Shown here: in pieces, positions 12,330 to 46,380 of the stretch
Layout of the letters: the number at the start of each line of letters is the position of its first letter
Numbering within the stretch: the first letter of the stretch is position 1
NCBI GenBank assembly: GCA_044226625.1
Contig: JBGAGQ010000047.1
Coordinates: forward strand, 1 to 51,228
Reading direction: 5' to 3'
Origin: Thermoanaerobaculia bacterium
GTDB taxonomy: Bacteria > Acidobacteriota > Thermoanaerobaculia > Multivoradales > UBA5704
Length of the DNA stretch: 51,228 bases
The notes under the pieces: model-generated
Databases searched by the model: none
What the model was told of the DNA's origin: nothing
Seen by the model: only the letters and a program-made list of their open reading frames with translations
Translations under genes and position numbers: made by a program

Positions 12330-14327
12330 GTGGCCTCGCGCATGCGTTGGGTTCTTGCTTTCGCGCTACTGAGCTACGCGTGGAGGGTCGAGGCTTCCGA
12401 AGCCCACCTCAAGATCTACGCGGAGTCGCCGGCCGAACCGCGCGGCGCGGGTCGGCCGGCGCTTTCCGGAACGATCCACGGCAAGATAGATCGGTCGGCG
12501 AAAGGGCCTTCTCCCATGCGCCTCTCGGCTCGATTCCTTGCGCCTGACCCCACCGGCACCGCTCGCCGATCCGTGCTGTCTGCCTGCAACCTGGAGAGAA
12601 GCTCGTTCCGATGCGATTTGCCGCCGGGGAAGCTCGACGTGGCGCTCGTGGCCCCGGGATTTTCTCCCTTCTACCTGTGGGGTCTCGAGATCGTACCTGG
12701 CCAAGACACCGATCTAGGAGCGGTCCGCTGGACGGTCGGTGCGTCTGTTTCGGGATGGATCGTCGTTCCGACGAGGGACGACTCCCCGGTCAAGATCGCT
12801 GTTGCGCCGGAGAACACAGGCTGGCGCAGCGATCCGGTATCTGAAAGAGCCGCCCTACGCAACGCTGAAACTCGAGCCGACGAACGCGGCTTCTTTCAGA
12901 TCGTCGGACTGTCCCCGGGGGCCTATCGACTGACGGCCGAGCGCAACGACCTTGCCAAGGCCGGAATGTCGATCGAACTCGGCGAAGGGGAAGAGCGCCG
13001 GTTGCCCCAACCCCTGCGGCTCGAGCCACCGATCACCCTCGAAGCTTTCGTCCGGCCGGCCGAAGCCGGAGGCAAGGCCTTGACCTGCGTGCTGGAACGG
13101 CTGGTTCCTCGAACGAACGTCGTTCAAGAGACGGCTCGTGGGTCGGTCGGCACGGATGGAGGATGTTCGGCAGGTAAACTGGAACCGGGCCGGTATACGT
13201 TTCGAGTCGTCGACAGCTCGAACAGCACGTTCTACGTCGCCGAGATCGAAGTCGAAGCGGACATGGCCCCGCTTTCGATCGATCTCGATTTCGTGGAGGT
13301 GGAAGGAAGGGTGACCGTCGGCGATTCCCACCCCTTGCGGGGCAGAGTGATCTTCGGCACGCTCAATCGCCAGCCCAACGTCACGGCCGAATCGGACGAA
13401 GAGGGCAAGTTCTCCACCCTCCTTCCCCGGGGCGGCGAGTGGCCCGTCGACGTGGTGGACGCCGACGGGACTTACCACGCGCCGAACGTCGACGTTCGGC
13501 GTAGTGCGGACGGAAAACCTTCTTGGGTCGATGTCGAGCTTCCTGACACCGCGATCCGCGGAACCGTTCGCGAAAAGGGTGAACCGGTTGCTGGCGCGAT
13601 CGTCTTGGCTCAACGCCAAGAGGAGGACAAGTTCCGGCGAGAGGCCTTCACGCGCAGCGGGAAGGATGGAACCTACCGATTGCGAGGGGTGCGTCCGGGC
13701 GATTTTCTTCTCCGCGCCTACACCCAGACCAGCTCTTCCCGCTGGCGCGAGCTGAAGATCGGGAAGGACGAAAAGCCTGGCGAGATCGATCTGGTTCTCA
13801 ACCGCCAACTTGAAGTTTCGGTCCGTGTAGTAGGTCCGCAGGGTCCGATTTCGGGAGCCTCGGTGACGGCTTTTCCCGTAATCCACGGACAGACCGAGTC
13901 ATGGACCCATCGCGGGGTAACAGAAGCGGACGGCGAGTTCCAATGGACCGACGTTGACGGCGAGGCCGAGGCGCTCGACCTCCTCGTCATTGCCGCGAGC
14001 TACGGGGCTCGGCTGCTTCGGGCTCCCCTCGCCGCCGCCAACGGCGCTCCGCTCACGATCCGTCTCGATCCGGAACAAGGCAGCCTGCGTTTGAGCGGAA
14101 AGCAGCTTGCGTCCGCCCCGCTCCTCCTGGCGGCGGGGGCTCGAATGCCGCTTTCCGTCGTCCTGCAGAATTTCCTCGTGGCGGGTCTAGCAAACGACGG
14201 TGCTGAAGGGCTGACTCTGAACGGATTCTCCCCGGGCACGTATTCGCTGTGCGGATCGCCACAGACCTGCGAGACCGGCGAACTCCGCAACGGCGAGCGC
14301 TTCTCGTTTTCGGCCGATTCGGAGTGA
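12330..14327 (+). CDS. Secreted protein with multiple carboxypeptidase-regulatory-like (CnaB-type) domains
   Basis: Signal peptide, then repeated motifs ADERGFFQIVGLSPGAYRL, SDEEGKF, IRGTVREKGEPVAGAIV, SGKDGTYRLRGVRPGDF, GPISGASV. Confidence 0.85.
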   Translation: MASRMRWVLAFALLSYAWRVEASEAHLKIYAESPAEPRGAGRPALSGTIHGKIDRSAKGPSPMRLSARFLAPDPTGTARRSVLSACNLERSSFRCDLPPGKLDVALVAPGFSPFYLWGLEIVPGQDTDLGAVRWTVGASVSGWIVVPTRDDSPVKIAVAPENTGWRSDPVSERAALRNAETRADERGFFQIVGLSPGAYRLTAERNDLAKAGMSIELGEGEERRLPQPLRLEPPITLEAFVRPAEAGGKALTCVLERLVPRTNVVQETARGSVGTDGGCSAGKLEPGRYTFRVVDSSNSTFYVAEIEVEADMAPLSIDLDFVEVEGRVTVGDSHPLRGRVIFGTLNRQPNVTAESDEEGKFSTLLPRGGEWPVDVVDADGTYHAPNVDVRRSADGKPSWVDVELPDTAIRGTVREKGEPVAGAIVLAQRQEEDKFRREAFTRSGKDGTYRLRGVRPGDFLLRAYTQTSSSRWRELKIGKDEKPGEIDLVLNRQLEVSVRVVGPQGPISGASVTAFPVIHGQTESWTHRGVTEADGEFQWTDVDGEAEALDLLVIAASYGARLLRAPLAAANGAPLTIRLDPEQGSLRLSGKQLASAPLLLAAGARMPLSVVLQNFLVAGLANDGAEGLTLNGFSPGTYSLCGSPQTCETGELRNGERFSFSADSE

Positions 14328-14345: not shown

Positions 14346-15147
14346 ATGACGAGATCTTTCAAAAGAGCGCTCCTGGCGCTCCTGCCGGCCCTGCTTCTGG
14401 GAGTCGGCGAGTCGGCCTCGAGTGCTGAGACTTCCAACGCCCGGCGTGGCTTGCTCGGTGCCGAGCTCCAAGCCGAAGGCGATCGGGCTCGCGTCGTAGC
14501 GGTCACCTCGGGGGGGCCTGCGGCCAAGGCCGGCCTTGCGCCCGACGATCTGATCGTCGCCTTCAACGGATCGGGGTTCCGTTTCGCTACGGATCGCGAG
14601 CTCATCGAAGGCGGTGGCGTGGAAGACCCAGCCCTCCGGCTCGCAGTTCCGTTTCGCTACGGATCGCGAGCTCATCGAAGGGCTTGGCTGGATTCGCGCC
14701 GGCAAGCCGGTGCGTCTGTCCTTTCTTCGGGCGGGCTCGAGGCGCGAGGCGGCCGTCATGCCGAGAGCTGCATCAGACGAAGAGCAACGGGCCCTCGACT
14801 CCTGGCTGGCCGTCGCGCGCGGCGATGAAGAGCGCCTACGCCGCGAGCGCGCGCAGGCGGACTTCGAAGCAATGGTGAGACACCAGCCATTGGACATCAC
14901 CTTTCTCCGCTCGGCTACTGGTGTCGAGATCTCTTCGAAAACCCTGCTTCCGCTCGGGCTTGACCTCAACAACCGAGTGCTCGACGCGCTGACGAACGCC
15001 CTGCACGTCAGCGACCGAATGGTGATCCGCTACGGCTGGGAGAATGCCAAAAACGCGCTAAAGATGGATGTCGTAACGAGCCCGAGCCATGTCGATGTGG
15101 ATGCCGTGCTTGCGGAAGTCCGCGGCACGCCAGCAAAGCGCCAGTAG
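14346..15147 (+). pseudogene. Secreted PDZ-domain protein frameshifted by a 70-bp insertion
   Basis: Signal peptide and RGLLGAEL...VVAVTSGGPAAKAGLAPDDLIVAFNG in one frame; the rest of the PDZ (LGWIRAGKPVRLSFLRAG) in the +1 frame. Deleting 14612-14681 restores one 243-aa ORF. Confidence 0.85.
14576..14681 (+). repeat. Perfect 36-bp direct repeat flanking a unique 34-bp insert (CRISPR-like repeat-spacer-repeat unit)
   Basis: GTTCCGTTTCGCTACGGATCGCGAGCTCATCGAAGG at 14576-14611 and 14646-14681; insert CGGTGGCGTGGAAGACCCAGCCCTCCGGCTCGCA. Confidence 0.95.
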
Positions 15148-15150
15148 CCT

Positions 15151-16395
15151 TCAAAATTCATAGCGCTCGGCAAATGCGACCAGCGCCTCTTCGAATAGCG
15201 AAAGCGGCGGGCGGACCAACCCGGCGCCGACCTGGCCGACTCCGGCTTCTTTGTGGGCGATGCCGGTGTTGACGCGCGGCGGGATCTGGAGCTCGACCAC
15301 TTTTCTCAGGTCGATGCCCACGGGCGTGCCGCGAAAGCCAAGCGCGGGGATCGTCCAGTGCGGATGCTCGGCTGCGGTGATCTCGTACATCTCGAGGGTG
15401 GCGTCGCGCGCGTCTTCCGGACGGCCGCCGATGAAGGTGACGATCGCGGGGGCGGCGGCCATCGCGAAGGCGCCGATGCCCGCGGTTTCGGTGATCGTCG
15501 AGTCGCCGATGTCGGGGTTTGCGTCGGCGTTCGAAAAGCCCGGGAAGTAGAGCCCGTCGGGCACCGCGGCGGGAGCCGTGAACCAGCGGTCGCCGAGCCC
15601 CGAGACGCGGATGCCGAAGTCGGTTCCGTTCCGCGCCATGGTCGAGACGATCGTGCTCCCGGGAACTCCATGCGCCGCGTCCGCCATCGACTTGCTGGCG
15701 GCCATCACGGGGTTCAGGACCGAGAGCGGATTCGCGCCGAGAAATTCGAGGATCTCCCCCGCCCTAGGCGCTCTGGAAAGATGTGGCGCGAGCGCTTTCA
15801 GGAAGAGCAGCGAGCCCGCTTTGTTCCGGTTGTGCCCCTCGTCGCCCATCTGGAGCGCCTCGGCGATCAGGGCGCGAAGATCGAGGCCGCCCGCCGCGGC
15901 GAGCGCCGCGCCGAGCGCGGGCGCCATCGTTTCGTTCATCCAGCGGAGCTTCGCGAGCACCTCGGGCGCATAGGCGCCGTAACGGAGCACCTTGCCGTAC
16001 CCCTCGTTCAGGTTCGAGAACGTGCGGCGGCCGGAGGTCTCGTCCTCGAGGACGTAGACCTGCATCGAGGGAGAGATCACGCCCGCCATGGGCCCCACCG
16101 CACCCCGATGGTGGCAGGGCTCGAAGCGGACGCCGCCCGACTCGACGAGGGATTTGGCCTCCGCCTCGCTCTTCGCCCGTCCCTCGAAGAGAAGGGCGCC
16201 GATCACCGCGCCGCGCAGCGGCCCGGACATCCGTGCCCACTCGATCGGCGGCCCGGCGTGGAGCAGGAGATCTTCGGAGAAATCGCCGATCGCCTCGCGC
16301 GCTGCGGCGATCCCGACGAGGCGAGGGCGGGCGGCGGTCATCCGCTCGATCGCCGTGCGGTTCGCCTGGTCGATGTCGGGCTTGGGGTCGCTCAT
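15151..16395 (-). CDS. DUF1116 family protein (YlbE/AllG-like)
   Basis: LLHAGPPI, PCHHRGAVGPMAGVIS, NEGYGKVLRYGA, MGDEGHNRN, RNGTDFGI, DIGDSTITE, NTGIAHK. Confidence 0.92.
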   Translation of the reverse strand: MSDPKPDIDQANRTAIERMTAARPRLVGIAAAREAIGDFSEDLLLHAGPPIEWARMSGPLRGAVIGALLFEGRAKSEAEAKSLVESGGVRFEPCHHRGAVGPMAGVISPSMQVYVLEDETSGRRTFSNLNEGYGKVLRYGAYAPEVLAKLRWMNETMAPALGAALAAAGGLDLRALIAEALQMGDEGHNRNKAGSLLFLKALAPHLSRAPRAGEILEFLGANPLSVLNPVMAASKSMADAAHGVPGSTIVSTMARNGTDFGIRVSGLGDRWFTAPAAVPDGLYFPGFSNADANPDIGDSTITETAGIGAFAMAAAPAIVTFIGGRPEDARDATLEMYEITAAEHPHWTIPALGFRGTPVGIDLRKVVELQIPPRVNTGIAHKEAGVGQVGAGLVRPPLSLFEEALVAFAERYEF

Positions 16396-18137
16396 TCCAT
16401 TTCGTCCGTGCCTCGGCCCTTCAGGCGGCGAAGGATCGCGGCAAGCTTCTCGTTTCCCCCGGCGGGGGGGCGCCAATCCACGTGAACGGCCGCGATGCCT
16501 TGAGAAAGCAGGCTATCGCAGAACGTCTCGACGCCGACGTTGACGACCGAGAGCGGAGCGGCCACCGCGTCGAGCGGAACGGACGTCGCGGCCGCCTCGT
16601 GGCGGGGGCCGAGGCGTTCCCAGGCGATCTCGACCAGCTCTTCGACCGAGCGGGCGATCTCCGCCCCGGCGCGGCGAAGGATTTCGGTCTGCTCCGCCTC
16701 TCCCTGGAGATCGGCGTCCGTGCCGACGACCAAGGCGGCGATCGCGAGCTCGCGCCCGGCGCGCCGGGCCTCGGCGAGCGCCCGCTCGATCTCCGGCGCC
16801 AGCACGCCCGCGGGGTCGGCGTGCGCGCCGAAACCGAGGACGACGTCGAGGAAGACGAGGCTCACCGTCGGGTCCGACGCCTCGGCGCGCAACCGCCGGA
16901 GGCGCAGCTCCGGGTCGATCATCGGATGAAGCCGGCCGACGGTGAATTCGTCCGCGCCGAGGTCGAGGATGGCATGGCCCGAACCCGAGCTCCGGCCCGG
17001 ATCGGGCAGCGCGAGCGAGCCCCCGATCGGCGCGTTCGAGTACACGGGTGCGAACGCGATCTCCAGCCCCAGCTGAACCTCGTAGGCGAGCGTGCCGCCC
17101 GCGAACAGACCGCGCAGGAAGCCCGCCGGCCTCTCCTTCGGCAACGCACCCGCCGCATGCCGTGGCTCGGGGGTGCGGTCGGAGCCCTGCCCTGCCACTA
17201 AATGAGCCAGATCGGCCGCCTCGGCGAGGCTCACGGCGAATCGAATGTTGCCGAGCCGACGAAGCGGCGGGTTCTTTCCCAAGAAGCTCACGACCACCGG
17301 CTTGCCCGTGTCCCGTGCCTCGGCGAGGACTTTCAGCAGGACCGCGGGGGCAGGAGGCTTTGCGAGCAGGACGATCGCCGTCGTGTCCGGATCTCGCGCC
17401 AAGAGATCGAGCGCCTGGAGCGCGGAGATCCCGCCGACCTCGACGCTCAGATCGCGCCCGCCCAGGCCGATCGCCTGCGACACGCCGGTGCCCAGCGCGT
17501 GGAGACGGCACGCGACGGTTTGAAGCCCGGTGCCGGACGCGGCGACGATTCCCACCGATCCCCGACGCACGGCGTTCGAGAAGCCGAGCCCGGCACCGCC
17601 GAGGATCGCCGTGCCGCAGTCGGGACCGAGCACGAACAGCCCGCGCGAGCGAGCCTTCTGTTTGAGCGCCACCTCGTCCTCGAGGGCGACGTTGTCGGAA
17701 TAGAGGAAGATGTTCCGGCCACGATCGAGCGCCTCGTGCGCGACGTCGGCGGCATGGCGACCCGGAACGGAGACCTGCACCCACCGCGCCTCCGGCAGGG
17801 ACTTGAGCGCGCCATCGAGGCTTCGGGGCCGATAGCCGGTTTCGCCCGCGCCGCCCGAGCGGACCGCGAGCAGCGAGTCAACTCGCGACAGTGCCTCCGC
17901 CGCCGCGTCGGCGGATTCCGCGCGCACGGCGATCGCGAGGTCGCCCGGTCCCGCCGCCTCCGTCTCCGCGCCGAGTAGTCCGCTCGCCGCGAGGATCTCT
18001 CGGTTCGCCGGCGTCGCCATCACCACCCCCGCGTCGAGAACGCCGGGCAGCGCGGCGAGCGCCTGCTGTAGGCGCATCAGCACGACCGAGTCGTGGTAAG
18101 AGCCGGCGCGGACGGAGGTGCGGAGGATCGAGGTCAT
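16392..18137 (-). CDS. fdrA: Acyl-CoA synthetase FdrA (AllF/YahF-like)
   Basis: YHDSVVLM, SVPG, LGPDCGT, ASGTGLQ, GGRDLS, GLFAGGTL, DLGADEFTVGRLHPMIDP, WRPPAGGN. Confidence 0.92.
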   Translation of the reverse strand: MTSILRTSVRAGSYHDSVVLMRLQQALAALPGVLDAGVVMATPANREILAASGLLGAETEAAGPGDLAIAVRAESADAAAEALSRVDSLLAVRSGGAGETGYRPRSLDGALKSLPEARWVQVSVPGRHAADVAHEALDRGRNIFLYSDNVALEDEVALKQKARSRGLFVLGPDCGTAILGGAGLGFSNAVRRGSVGIVAASGTGLQTVACRLHALGTGVSQAIGLGGRDLSVEVGGISALQALDLLARDPDTTAIVLLAKPPAPAVLLKVLAEARDTGKPVVVSFLGKNPPLRRLGNIRFAVSLAEAADLAHLVAGQGSDRTPEPRHAAGALPKERPAGFLRGLFAGGTLAYEVQLGLEIAFAPVYSNAPIGGSLALPDPGRSSGSGHAILDLGADEFTVGRLHPMIDPELRLRRLRAEASDPTVSLVFLDVVLGFGAHADPAGVLAPEIERALAEARRAGRELAIAALVVGTDADLQGEAEQTEILRRAGAEIARSVEELVEIAWERLGPRHEAAATSVPLDAVAAPLSVVNVGVETFCDSLLSQGIAAVHVDWRPPAGGNEKLAAILRRLKGRGTDEME

Positions 18138-46305: not shown

Positions 46306-46380
46306 TGGTTGGGGCGGGAGGATTCGAACCTCCGAATGCCAGATCCAAAGTCTGGTGCCTTACCACTTGGCGACGCCCCA
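46306..46380 (-). tRNA. tRNA-Gln (TTG)
   Basis: TGGGGCGTCGCCAAGTGGTAAGGCACCAGACTTTGGATCTGGCATTCGGAGGTTCGAATCCTCCCGCCCCAACCA: cloverleaf, anticodon TTG, encoded CCA. Confidence 0.98.

What the first reader, a model, noticed from the sequence alone, without database searches (positions are those of the whole stretch)
14576..14681. Apparent off-target CRISPR spacer acquisition inside a coding gene: a one-spacer array that frameshifts the PDZ gene
Seen: two identical 36-bp copies (GTTCCGTTTCGCTACGGATCGCGAGCTCATCGAAGG) flank 34 unrelated bp. One copy is native PDZ coding sequence (FRFATDRELIEG), and deleting 70 bp restores an intact 243-aa PDZ protein. The event was therefore insertion of foreign DNA with a 36-bp target duplication. 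The duplicated site looks like a CRISPR repeat: 5' GTT, internal palindromes (TCCGT/ACGGA and TCGC/GCGA) and a 3' end CTCATCGAAG. Established: many type I repeats end in ATTGAA(A/G), type I-G/I-U repeats often end in CTCATTGAAG, and Cas1-Cas2 integration duplicates the whole repeat and inserts a 30-40 bp spacer. Transposon target duplications are much shorter, and off-target integration has been shown experimentally in E. coli. Inference: this is a natural record of Cas1-Cas2 mistargeting that acts as a mutagen and could seed a new array. No cas genes are in the window.
Basis: partly seen in the sequence, partly recalled or inferred. Interest (0 to 1): 0.9.

Follow-up and report, generated by a model that had tools for sequence, protein, structure and literature searches.

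The report
70-bp duplicating insertion breaking PDZ gene
A PDZ-domain gene is broken by a 70-base insertion, 34 bases of unknown origin plus a 36-base copy of the target site, which looks like a stray CRISPR spacer insertion but does not fit the genome's own CRISPR system well enough to be sure.

Summary
Window 14576-14611 and 14646-14681 are identical 36-mers around 34 unrelated bases. Orthologues of 243-253 aa lack the 70 bp. A 100-nt contig built independently from a public run carries both repeat/insert junctions.

The CRISPR reading is only partly supported. The genome has one cas locus, type I-C, with a 32-bp repeat (not 36) and 33-36-bp spacers. The duplicated site is no more like that repeat than shuffles are, and it matches no Rfam CRISPR family. 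No source was found for the 34-mer.

Two new facts:
- cas1c itself carries a twin event, a 39-bp duplication plus 31 orphan bases, again 70 bp, absent from five same-genus genomes.
- The assembly also holds 11 perfect filler-free tandem duplications, enriched near contig ends. These are probably join artefacts.

My odds:
- Cas1-Cas2-type off-target integration: about 0.37.
- Break repair with filler DNA: about 0.28.
- Assembly artefact: about 0.15.
- Something else: the rest.

The parts
14346..15147 (+). PDZ-domain gene with a signal-peptide-like N-terminus, interrupted. Without the 70 bp it would be 732 nt, i.e. 243 codons plus stop.
   Evidence: ORFs. PDZ_2, PDZ_6 and PDZ Pfam hits on residues 33-79. 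Collinear alignment to the intact G006 protein. Intact orthologues of 243-253 aa. Same neighbours in G006: a CarboxypepD_reg protein upstream and AllG downstream on the other strand.
14576..14611 (+). Copy 1 of the 36-bp duplicated target site (native coding sequence, FRFATDRELIEG).
   Evidence: aligned to G006 DNA.
14612..14645 (.). 34-bp orphan insert of unknown origin.
   Evidence: Unique in the window and in the genome. Not similar to its flanks on either strand, nor as a diverged tandem copy, nor at protein level. No exact match in viral, metagenome or genome contig collections. Only E>=1 matches in phage records. 0 of 299 other genomes of the same order match with up to 3 mismatches.
14646..14681 (+). 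Copy 2 of the 36-bp duplicated target site, in frame with the C-terminal part of the gene.
   Evidence: a Logan contig of run X1 covers 14582-14681.
14346..14828 (+). N-terminal ORF (160 aa). The native frame runs to the end of copy 1, then continues out of frame through the insert and copy 2.
14614..15147 (+). C-terminal ORF (177 aa). Its GTG start lies inside the insert. There is no evidence that it is expressed.
   Evidence: (its only database entry is the window's own).

Best explanation
A real, recent insertion made by a staggered-cut integration. Two nicks about 36 bp apart on opposite strands were joined to the ends of a foreign fragment of about 34 bp, and gap filling duplicated the 36 bp. 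The only enzyme known to give a duplication of 30-40 bp around an insert of 30-40 bp is the CRISPR integrase Cas1-Cas2 acting away from its array (non-canonical or off-target spacer acquisition). The likeliest agent is the genome's own type I-C Cas4-Cas1-Cas2 with a slipped second cut. Less likely is a second adaptation module that is not in this assembly. The same process hit cas1c itself. The consequence is a frameshifted PDZ gene. The two-copy structure is not a working CRISPR array.

Shown: the anatomy, the empty site in relatives, junction support in reads, and the presence of cas genes. Inferred: the enzyme.
For: - Anatomy: 36-bp exact duplication plus 34 unrelated bases. The insert is not a copy of either flank or of anything else in the genome, so this is not a plain tandem duplication.
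- A 34-bp insert lies inside the native spacer range. 36 of the 64 intervals measured between near-perfect repeats are 33-36 bp.
- The genome encodes a complete type I-C set: cas3, cas5c, cas8c, cas7, cas4, cas1c, cas2. It sits beside an array in which the repeat's 11-mer occurs 94 times.
- A twin event lies in cas1c (G000:C121:90322-90430): a 39-bp duplication plus 31 orphan bases, again 70 bp. In a genome-wide scan these were the only isolated exact pairs of this kind among the 20 listed. It is absent from cas1c in 5 of 5 same-genus genomes that have the gene.
- The site is empty in same-genus G006 and in all 4 database orthologues.
- Both junctions are present in an independent k=31 contig of run X1, at a depth like that of the flanks.
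- A 70-bp unit (32 + 38) occurs in the I-C array of G006.
- Literature, passages read: off-target integration was seen in E. coli and described as 'circumstantial evidence in two other species' (PMC7054753; bioRxiv 10.1101/148544, both citing Nivala 2018, which I could not read). In S. thermophilus, mutated repeats shift the second cut by about 8-9 bp in vivo, so a longer duplication at a non-canonical site is possible (PMC6895254).
Against: - The duplication is 36 bp here and 39 bp in cas1c, but the native repeat is 32 bp in this genome and in 4 of 4 relatives whose arrays I read. A true 32-bp duplication would need 4 and 7 chance matches at the borders.
- The 31-bp cas1c insert is below the native spacer range.
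- Neither duplicated site resembles the native repeat. Shuffles scoring as well: R1 652 and 318 of 2000; R2 498 and 1695 of 2000.
- No Rfam CRISPR-DR match on the PDZ site at E<=10 or on the cas1c site at E<=1. R1 folds no better than shuffles.
- The upstream flanks do not resemble this genome's own leader end.
- No protospacer and so no PAM for either insert.
- The genus's second module (RT-Cas1-Cas2) has a 37-bp repeat and a 73-80-bp period. It does not fit either, and its repeat is not in this assembly.
- An identical total of 70 bp with different partitions is not what a ruler enzyme predicts.
- One of only two events landing in the 1-kb cas1 gene is very improbable by chance.
- The same assembly carries 11 perfect tandem duplications that look technical.
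- The cas1c twin was not checked in reads.
- k=31 contigs cannot show X-R-Y-R-Z on one molecule.
Confidence: 0.37

Rival explanations
1. Break repair with filler DNA. A double-strand break with long 5' overhangs (two nearby nicks on opposite strands) was filled in, which duplicated 36-39 bp. It was then joined by the cell's Ku/LigD end-joining system, which captured a short stray DNA fragment. No CRISPR enzyme is involved.
For: The genome encodes Ku and two LigD polymerase-domain proteins, one of them next to Ku. The junctions show no resemblance to the CRISPR repeat or leader. Duplication and filler lengths differ between the two events, 36/34 and 39/31. Two further sites have a duplication with a short filler, C125:111000 (94 + 8) and C106:14856 (69 + 10), so there may be a continuum of filler lengths. 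That fill-in of 5' overhangs is a main mutagenic outcome of bacterial end joining is from my own knowledge, not from a call.
Against: Nothing explains why overhangs and fillers both fall in the 30-40-bp range twice, or why both events total 70 bp. Overhangs of 36-39 nt have no known source. Filler capture of this size is not, to my knowledge, documented for bacterial Ku/LigD repair. The C106 filler is a one-mismatch copy of the downstream sequence, and both short-filler sites may be assembly artefacts.
Confidence: 0.28
2. Assembly or gap-closure artefact. Two primary contigs overlapping by 36 bp were joined without merging, and junk was left between them. This would be the same fault that made the other short duplications in this assembly.
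For: - One search flagged 38 loci. I examined the 13 that looked two-copy. 11 are perfect tandem duplications of 34-140 bp, with junction microhomology of 0, 2, 2, 0, 0, 0, 1, 0, 3, 0, 0 bp.
- 3 of the 13 are exactly 140 bp.
- 7 of the 13 lie within 2 kb of a contig end, against 8% of the genome (binomial P = 2e-5).
- One of them splits an ABC-F ATPase gene that is intact in 7 of 7 same-genus genomes.
- Stretches of the CRISPR array are full of indels, as if filled from raw long reads.
- No Logan contig was laid on 14439-14581, just upstream of copy 1.
- Both filler events add exactly 70 bp.
Against: A contig built independently from the reads of run X1 contains the path end of repeat, insert, whole repeat, with 0 differences at depth 4.69, against 2.8 and 5.89 for the flanks. 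Junk from a join or from one noisy read should not recur in reads. The two filler events are 14.6 and 43 kb from contig ends. Unlike the 11 perfect duplications, they carry unrelated DNA. X1 may be the sample the genome came from, so this is independent of the assembler but not of the library.
Confidence: 0.15
3. Replication template switching. The polymerase left the template after copying the 36 bp, copied 34 nt elsewhere, and returned to the start of the 36 bp.
For: This would give a duplication with a templated insert. The best local match of the insert is to the reverse complement of the gene's own signal-peptide region about 190 bp upstream, matched or beaten by 8 of 300 shuffles.
Against: That match is gapped (6 gap columns in 35) and was one of four tests. 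No other template exists in the 97.9%-complete genome or in 299 genomes of the same order.
Confidence: 0.07

Closest known systems
Non-canonical (off-target) Cas1-Cas2 spacer integration, 'neo-CRISPR' (Nivala, Shipman & Church 2018, Nat Microbiol). The paper is not held; I know it here only through passages in PMC7054753, PMC6698737 and bioRxiv 10.1101/148544.
   Same: A spacer-sized insert flanked by a direct duplication of a repeat-sized piece of ordinary chromosome, in a host that has Cas1-Cas2. The result is a two-repeat, one-spacer unit.
   Different: The duplication is 4 to 7 bp longer than the host's repeat. There is no detectable likeness to the repeat or leader, and no protospacer. 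This is a natural population rather than an over-expression experiment, and one event lies in cas1 itself.
The genome's own type I-C CRISPR array (G000:C121:92579-102487)
   Same: Unit length is of the same order (65-68 bp against 70). The insert length of 34 is inside the 33-36 spacer range.
   Different: The array repeat is 32 bp with a 7-bp stem (z -2.34) and gives a weak Rfam CRISPR-DR9 match. The PDZ site is 36 bp of coding sequence with no such signal, has only two copies, has no leader, and lies on another contig.
Ruler-defined second-site integration and its slips (S. thermophilus type II-A, PMC6895254; passages read)
   Same: It shows that when repeat motifs are altered the second cut can move by about 8-9 bp in vivo, lengthening the duplicated segment.
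   Different: A different CRISPR type and engineered repeats. Nothing comparable is known to me for type I-C.
False duplications at contig joins or gaps in assemblies (Ko et al. 2022, PMC9516828; search listing and start of abstract only)
   Same: The same assembly has 11 perfect short tandem duplications, enriched near contig ends.
   Different: The PDZ event carries 34 unrelated bases, lies mid-contig, and its junctions recur in reads.
Transposon or MITE insertion with target-site duplication
   Same: An insert flanked by a direct repeat of the target.
   Different: The insert is 34 bp and single-copy. By eye it has no terminal inverted repeats and is not palindromic. The two inserts are unlike each other: 631 and 1819 of 2000 shuffles score as well. 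By my own knowledge, a 36-bp duplication is far longer than those of known bacterial transposons.

Membership tests
Off-target Cas1-Cas2 spacer integration | Spacer-sized unrelated insert flanked by an exact direct duplication of the target | tested here: met
   36 + 34 + 36. The insert is unrelated to its flanks.
Off-target Cas1-Cas2 spacer integration | Duplication length equals the host system's repeat length, give or take a base | tested here: not met
   The native repeat is 32 bp. The duplications are 36 bp here and 39 bp in cas1c.
Off-target Cas1-Cas2 spacer integration | Insert length within the host's spacer range | tested here: met
   34 bp against a native 33-36 bp. The cas1c twin, at 31 bp, is below the range unless 3 border bases are chance matches.
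Off-target Cas1-Cas2 spacer integration | Host encodes Cas1 and Cas2 | tested here: met
   A type I-C locus on C121. In this assembly cas1c is split by the twin insertion.
Off-target Cas1-Cas2 spacer integration | Target resembles the leader-repeat junction or the repeat | tested here: not met
   No significant likeness to the repeat and no Rfam CRISPR-DR hit. The flank ends GGG|G while this genome's own leader ends GCC|G. The last 8 bases share 5 with ATTGAAAC, and a 5-bp stem starts at position 3 as in the native repeat, but the fold is not better than shuffles.
Off-target Cas1-Cas2 spacer integration | Insert traceable to a protospacer with the system's PAM | tested here: inconclusive
   No source was found in any collection. 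Most natural spacers have no known match, so this neither supports nor refutes.
Off-target Cas1-Cas2 spacer integration | Empty site in close relatives | tested here: met
   G006 DNA and 4 orthologous proteins lack it.
Bona fide CRISPR array | Several repeats, a leader, non-coding context, repeat recognised by the Cas processing enzyme | tested here: not met
   Two copies only, inside a coding gene, with no leader. The repeat is unlike the I-C repeat. Processing is not testable with these tools.
Simple tandem duplication (slippage or contig-join artefact) | The second unit is a copy of the first over its whole length | tested here: not met
   The best phase gives 16 of 34 matches, reached by 381 of 5000 shuffles. 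Semi-global alignments to the flanks score below the shuffle mean.
Contig-join artefact class of this assembly | Junction absent from reads | tested here: not met
   A contig of run X1 covers 14582-14681 exactly at depth 4.69. This was not tested for the cas1c twin or for the perfect duplications.

The most novel reading that the evidence does not exclude
The type I-C adaptation complex of this bacterium mis-integrated spacers into ordinary genes, including its own cas1, so switching itself off. Off target, its second cut lands 4-7 bp further out than in the array. That would make these two sites a natural record of how the repeat-length ruler fails without a repeat, of CRISPR adaptation acting as a mutagen, and of the first step towards a new array.
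Probability: 0.27. Interest if true: 0.8.

Novelty: new member of a known kind. Interest (0 to 1): 0.5.

Why it matters
Off-target spacer integration has been shown in E. coli that over-produce Cas1-Cas2. In the passages I read, evidence from natural genomes is called circumstantial. A clean natural case would show the fitness cost of adaptation directly, with two genes knocked out and one of them cas1. It would give real off-target sites for a type I-C integrase. It would also show how new arrays could be seeded.

If the events are instead break-repair products or artefacts, the lesson is practical. Repeat-spacer-repeat units in draft metagenome genomes need read-level proof, and this assembly carries at least a dozen short duplication faults that break genes.

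Tried and rejected
**Ideas tested and rejected**
- Insert as a noisy or diverged copy of its flanks, in any phase, on either strand, or at protein level: not supported. My early impression that VAWKTQPSGSQ mirrors VAFNGSG did not survive. 1265 of 3000 shuffles score as well, and none of 4 orthologues has such a loop.
- Insert resembling a junction of two native repeat halves: 35 of 2000 shuffles reach the score, as one of 12 tests. Not significant after correction.
- Other CRISPR arrays in the genome with 36-bp repeats: the candidate loci printed from my k-mer scan are plain tandem repeats.
- The genus's RT-Cas1-Cas2 module (37-bp repeat) as the agent: its repeat is not in this assembly, and its 73-80-bp unit does not fit.
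- The split second cas1 of G004 as a further example: the stretch aligned shows a single extra base and a TAG, not a large insertion.
- C81:218532 (33 + 38) and C20:17557 (33 + 34): diverged tandem or repeat-family elements, not the same kind.
- C113:73124 (35-bp repeat, 132-bp insert): relatives match only from downstream of it, so it is uninformative.

**Searches that found nothing**
- A source for either insert.
- Protein Atlas on the C-terminal part: no hit at 0.9 or above.
- Runs X2, X5 and X3 laid nothing on the stretch, and no contig was laid on 14439-14581. This is not evidence of absence.
- The search for homologous proteins found no near-identical allele, empty or filled, in other assemblies. 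The closest is 85% identical.

**Not done**
- Structure prediction, fold search and complex prediction were not used. Nothing here turns on a fold.
- Supplements of papers were not opened. Supplementary figures of PMC6895254 may give exact slip distances.

Full report
**1. What is there.** Window 14576-14611 and 14646-14681 are identical 36-mers separated by 34 bases. With up to three mismatches allowed the 36-mer occurs exactly twice in the window, and no shuffle gives two. In the whole 6.6-Mb genome it occurs only there. The window is the whole of contig C38 in a draft of 133 contigs, 67.7% G+C, N50 78.5 kb. The 34-mer occurs once in the window and once in the genome, and the next best matches are 14-mers. 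The identity ends abruptly on both sides.

**2. What it does to the gene.** The region lies in a PDZ-domain gene. The N-terminal ORF (14346-14828) has PDZ_2, PDZ_6 and PDZ hits in residues 33-79. It leaves the native frame after the first copy. A second ORF (14614-15147) carries the rest.

**3. The empty site.**
- One same-genus genome of the seven searched (G006) has the orthologue at 77-78% DNA identity, with the same neighbours. Its DNA aligns with a single gap of 70 columns, and its 253-aa protein is intact.
- The two halves of the window's gene align collinearly to that protein and overlap by FRFATDRELIEG.
- The four database orthologues (72-85% identical, 243 or 253 aa) are all uninterrupted and read ...AFNGSGF(H)F.TDR.LIEGL....
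- So the 70 bp are an insertion particular to this genome. The perfect identity of the copies and the otherwise undecayed frame say it is recent.

**4. Is it in the reads?**
- One public run (X1, bioreactor metagenome, holding 0.88 of the sampled words) may be the sample of origin.
- Three of its independently built k=31 contigs lay on the stretch. One ends at 14438 (depth 2.8). One of exactly 100 nt equals 14582-14681 (depth 4.69, no differences). One starts at 14652 and runs downstream (depth 5.89).
- The 100-nt contig is what a de Bruijn graph gives for repeat-insert-repeat: 30 nt of the first copy, the insert, and the second copy up to the branch. So reads join the end of the repeat to the insert, and the insert to the start of the repeat, at a depth like that of the flanks.
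- Not shown: one molecule carrying everything, since k=31 is shorter than the 36-bp repeat; the absence of an empty allele; and cover of 14439-14581.

**5. The host's CRISPR-Cas.**
- Cas1 and Cas2 profiles each hit one locus, on contig C121. NCBIfam names cas3, cas5c, cas8c, cas7/csd2, cas4, cas1c and cas2, which is type I-C.
- The array follows at C121:92579-102487. Its repeat is 32 bp and ends ATTGAAAC. 36 of the 64 intervals between near-perfect repeats are 33-36 bp, with a mode of 35.
- Four relatives whose arrays I could read also have 32-bp repeats, with units of 66-70 bp.
- The 36-mer is not like the native repeat: 652 and 318 of 2000 shuffles score as well on the two strands. It matches no Rfam CRISPR family at E<=10, whereas the true array gives weak CRISPR-DR9 hits. 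It folds no better than shuffles, z -0.13, against -2.34 for the native repeat.
- What remains of the resemblance: it starts with GT followed by a 5-bp stem at the same offset as the native stem, and 5 of its last 8 bases match ATTGAAAC.

**6. A twin in cas1c.**
- The Cas1 match is split between two frames. The cause is the same kind of structure. C121:90322-90360 and 90392-90430 are identical 39-mers (native sequence encoding LDPAVGFLHRDR) around 31 unrelated bases, again 70 bp in all.
- Five same-genus genomes have cas1c without it; their two matching pieces are offset by 70 bp.
- This insert too has no source in the genome (best match a 17-mer), in three public collections, or in 299 genomes of the order.
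- In a genome-wide scan for isolated exact pairs, which listed 20, only these two combine a repeat above 30 bp with an unrelated insert of about 30 bp. A third candidate is a diverged repeat-family element.
- The two inserts, and the two duplicated sites, are not alike. Both upstream flanks end in GGG followed by G.TC, a weak likeness that I did not test formally.

**7. A warning from the same assembly.**
- A scan for near-perfect tandem duplications flagged 38 loci. I examined the 13 that looked two-copy.
- Eleven are perfect duplications of 34, 52, 61, 62, 66, 74, 99, 108, 140, 140 and 140 bp with 0-3 bp of junction microhomology. Two have short fillers (69 + 10 and 94 + 8).
- Seven of the 13 lie within 2 kb of a contig end, where 8% of the genome lies (P = 2e-5).
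- One splits an ABC-F ATPase gene that is intact in all seven same-genus genomes.
- Parts of the CRISPR array are riddled with indels and partly repeated, as if filled from raw long reads.
- I read these as faults of contig joining or gap filling. That reading is inference; I could not lay reads on them.
- They lower trust in any short duplication here. The PDZ event differs from them: it carries unrelated DNA, lies 14.6 kb from a contig end, and has its junctions in reads.

**8. Weighing the explanations.**
- A duplication and an insert that are both 30-40 bp, twice, in a genome with Cas1-Cas2, is the signature of the CRISPR integrase. I know of no other enzyme that gives it.
- Against this, the duplications are 4 and 7 bp too long for the 32-bp system. 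The sites do not resemble the repeat or this genome's leader. The second insert is short. The equal total of 70 bp with unequal parts is odd, unless both events are 36 + 34 with three chance matches in cas1c. A hit in cas1 itself is very unlikely by chance.
- In S. thermophilus the second cut shifts by about 8-9 bp when repeat motifs are altered (PMC6895254, passages), so a longer duplication off target is conceivable.
- The genus also carries an RT-Cas1-Cas2 module with a 37-bp repeat and 73-80-bp units. Its repeat is not in this assembly and its dimensions do not fit either.
- The cell has Ku and LigD. Fill-in of a staggered break with captured filler is therefore possible, but it predicts no particular sizes.
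- My odds: Cas1-Cas2-type integration 0.37 (own I-C about 0.27), break repair with filler 0.28, artefact 0.15, template switching 0.07, and something unforeseen for the rest.

**9. Novelty.** Off-target integration is established for E. coli. One preprint I read says the evidence for two other species is circumstantial (10.1101/148544; also PMC7054753 and PMC6698737; Nivala 2018 itself is not held). My two literature searches on the topic listed no paper reporting a natural off-target event in a type I-C host or in a cas1 gene. That is a statement about those searches only. If the integrase reading is right, this is a new natural member of a known kind, with an unusual stagger.

Noticed in passing
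G000:C121:90322-90430 (outside the window; L016:14323-14431): cas1c of the genome's type I-C locus is split by a 70-bp insertion of the same anatomy: a 39-bp exact duplication around 31 orphan bases. Five same-genus genomes lack it.
   Followed up: yes
G000 contigs C107:760 and 15278, C11:70618, C128:1836, C16:56602, C35:51113, C57:38348, C70:606, C84:82672, C86:104139, C120:119355: Eleven perfect two-copy tandem duplications of 34-140 bp, three of them exactly 140 bp, with 0-3 bp of microhomology. With the two short-filler sites C106 and C125, 7 of these 13 sites lie within 2 kb of a contig end. They are probably contig-join or gap-fill artefacts, and many would break genes.
   Followed up: partly
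G000:C106:14856-15013 (L033): A 79-bp duplication (69 exact bases plus 10 with one mismatch) splits an ABC-F family ATPase gene. All seven same-genus genomes lack it.
   Followed up: yes
G000:C121:93100-96300 and 97550-99600, 101450-102487: Stretches of the type I-C CRISPR array have repeats full of small insertions and deletions. Its far end looks like a noisy second copy of spacers seen at 96392-97017. This suggests long-read filling or strain mixture in the array.
   Followed up: partly
L028 (G002:C81), L031 (G004:C23), L030 (G006:C259): Three same-genus genomes carry a second adaptation module flanked by arrays with a 37-bp repeat and 73-80-bp units. Cas1 was seen in all three, Cas2 and a group-II-intron-like reverse transcriptase in G004. 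Its repeat is not in G000. The cas1 of G004 is broken, with a single extra base and a TAG in the stretch aligned.
   Followed up: partly
G000:C77:20431-23644 and C27:5036-5773: Ku lies next to a LigD polymerase-domain gene, and there is a second LigD polymerase-domain gene. The organism has bacterial end-joining repair.
   Followed up: no
window 46306-46380 (-): tRNA-Gln (anticodon TTG), the only Rfam or ARAGORN hit in the window.
   Followed up: no
window 12330-14327 (+) and 15151-16476 (-): The neighbours of the PDZ gene are a 665-aa protein with three carboxypeptidase-regulatory-like domains and an AllG (oxamate carbamoyltransferase subunit) homologue. The same arrangement is found in G006.
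   Followed up: partly
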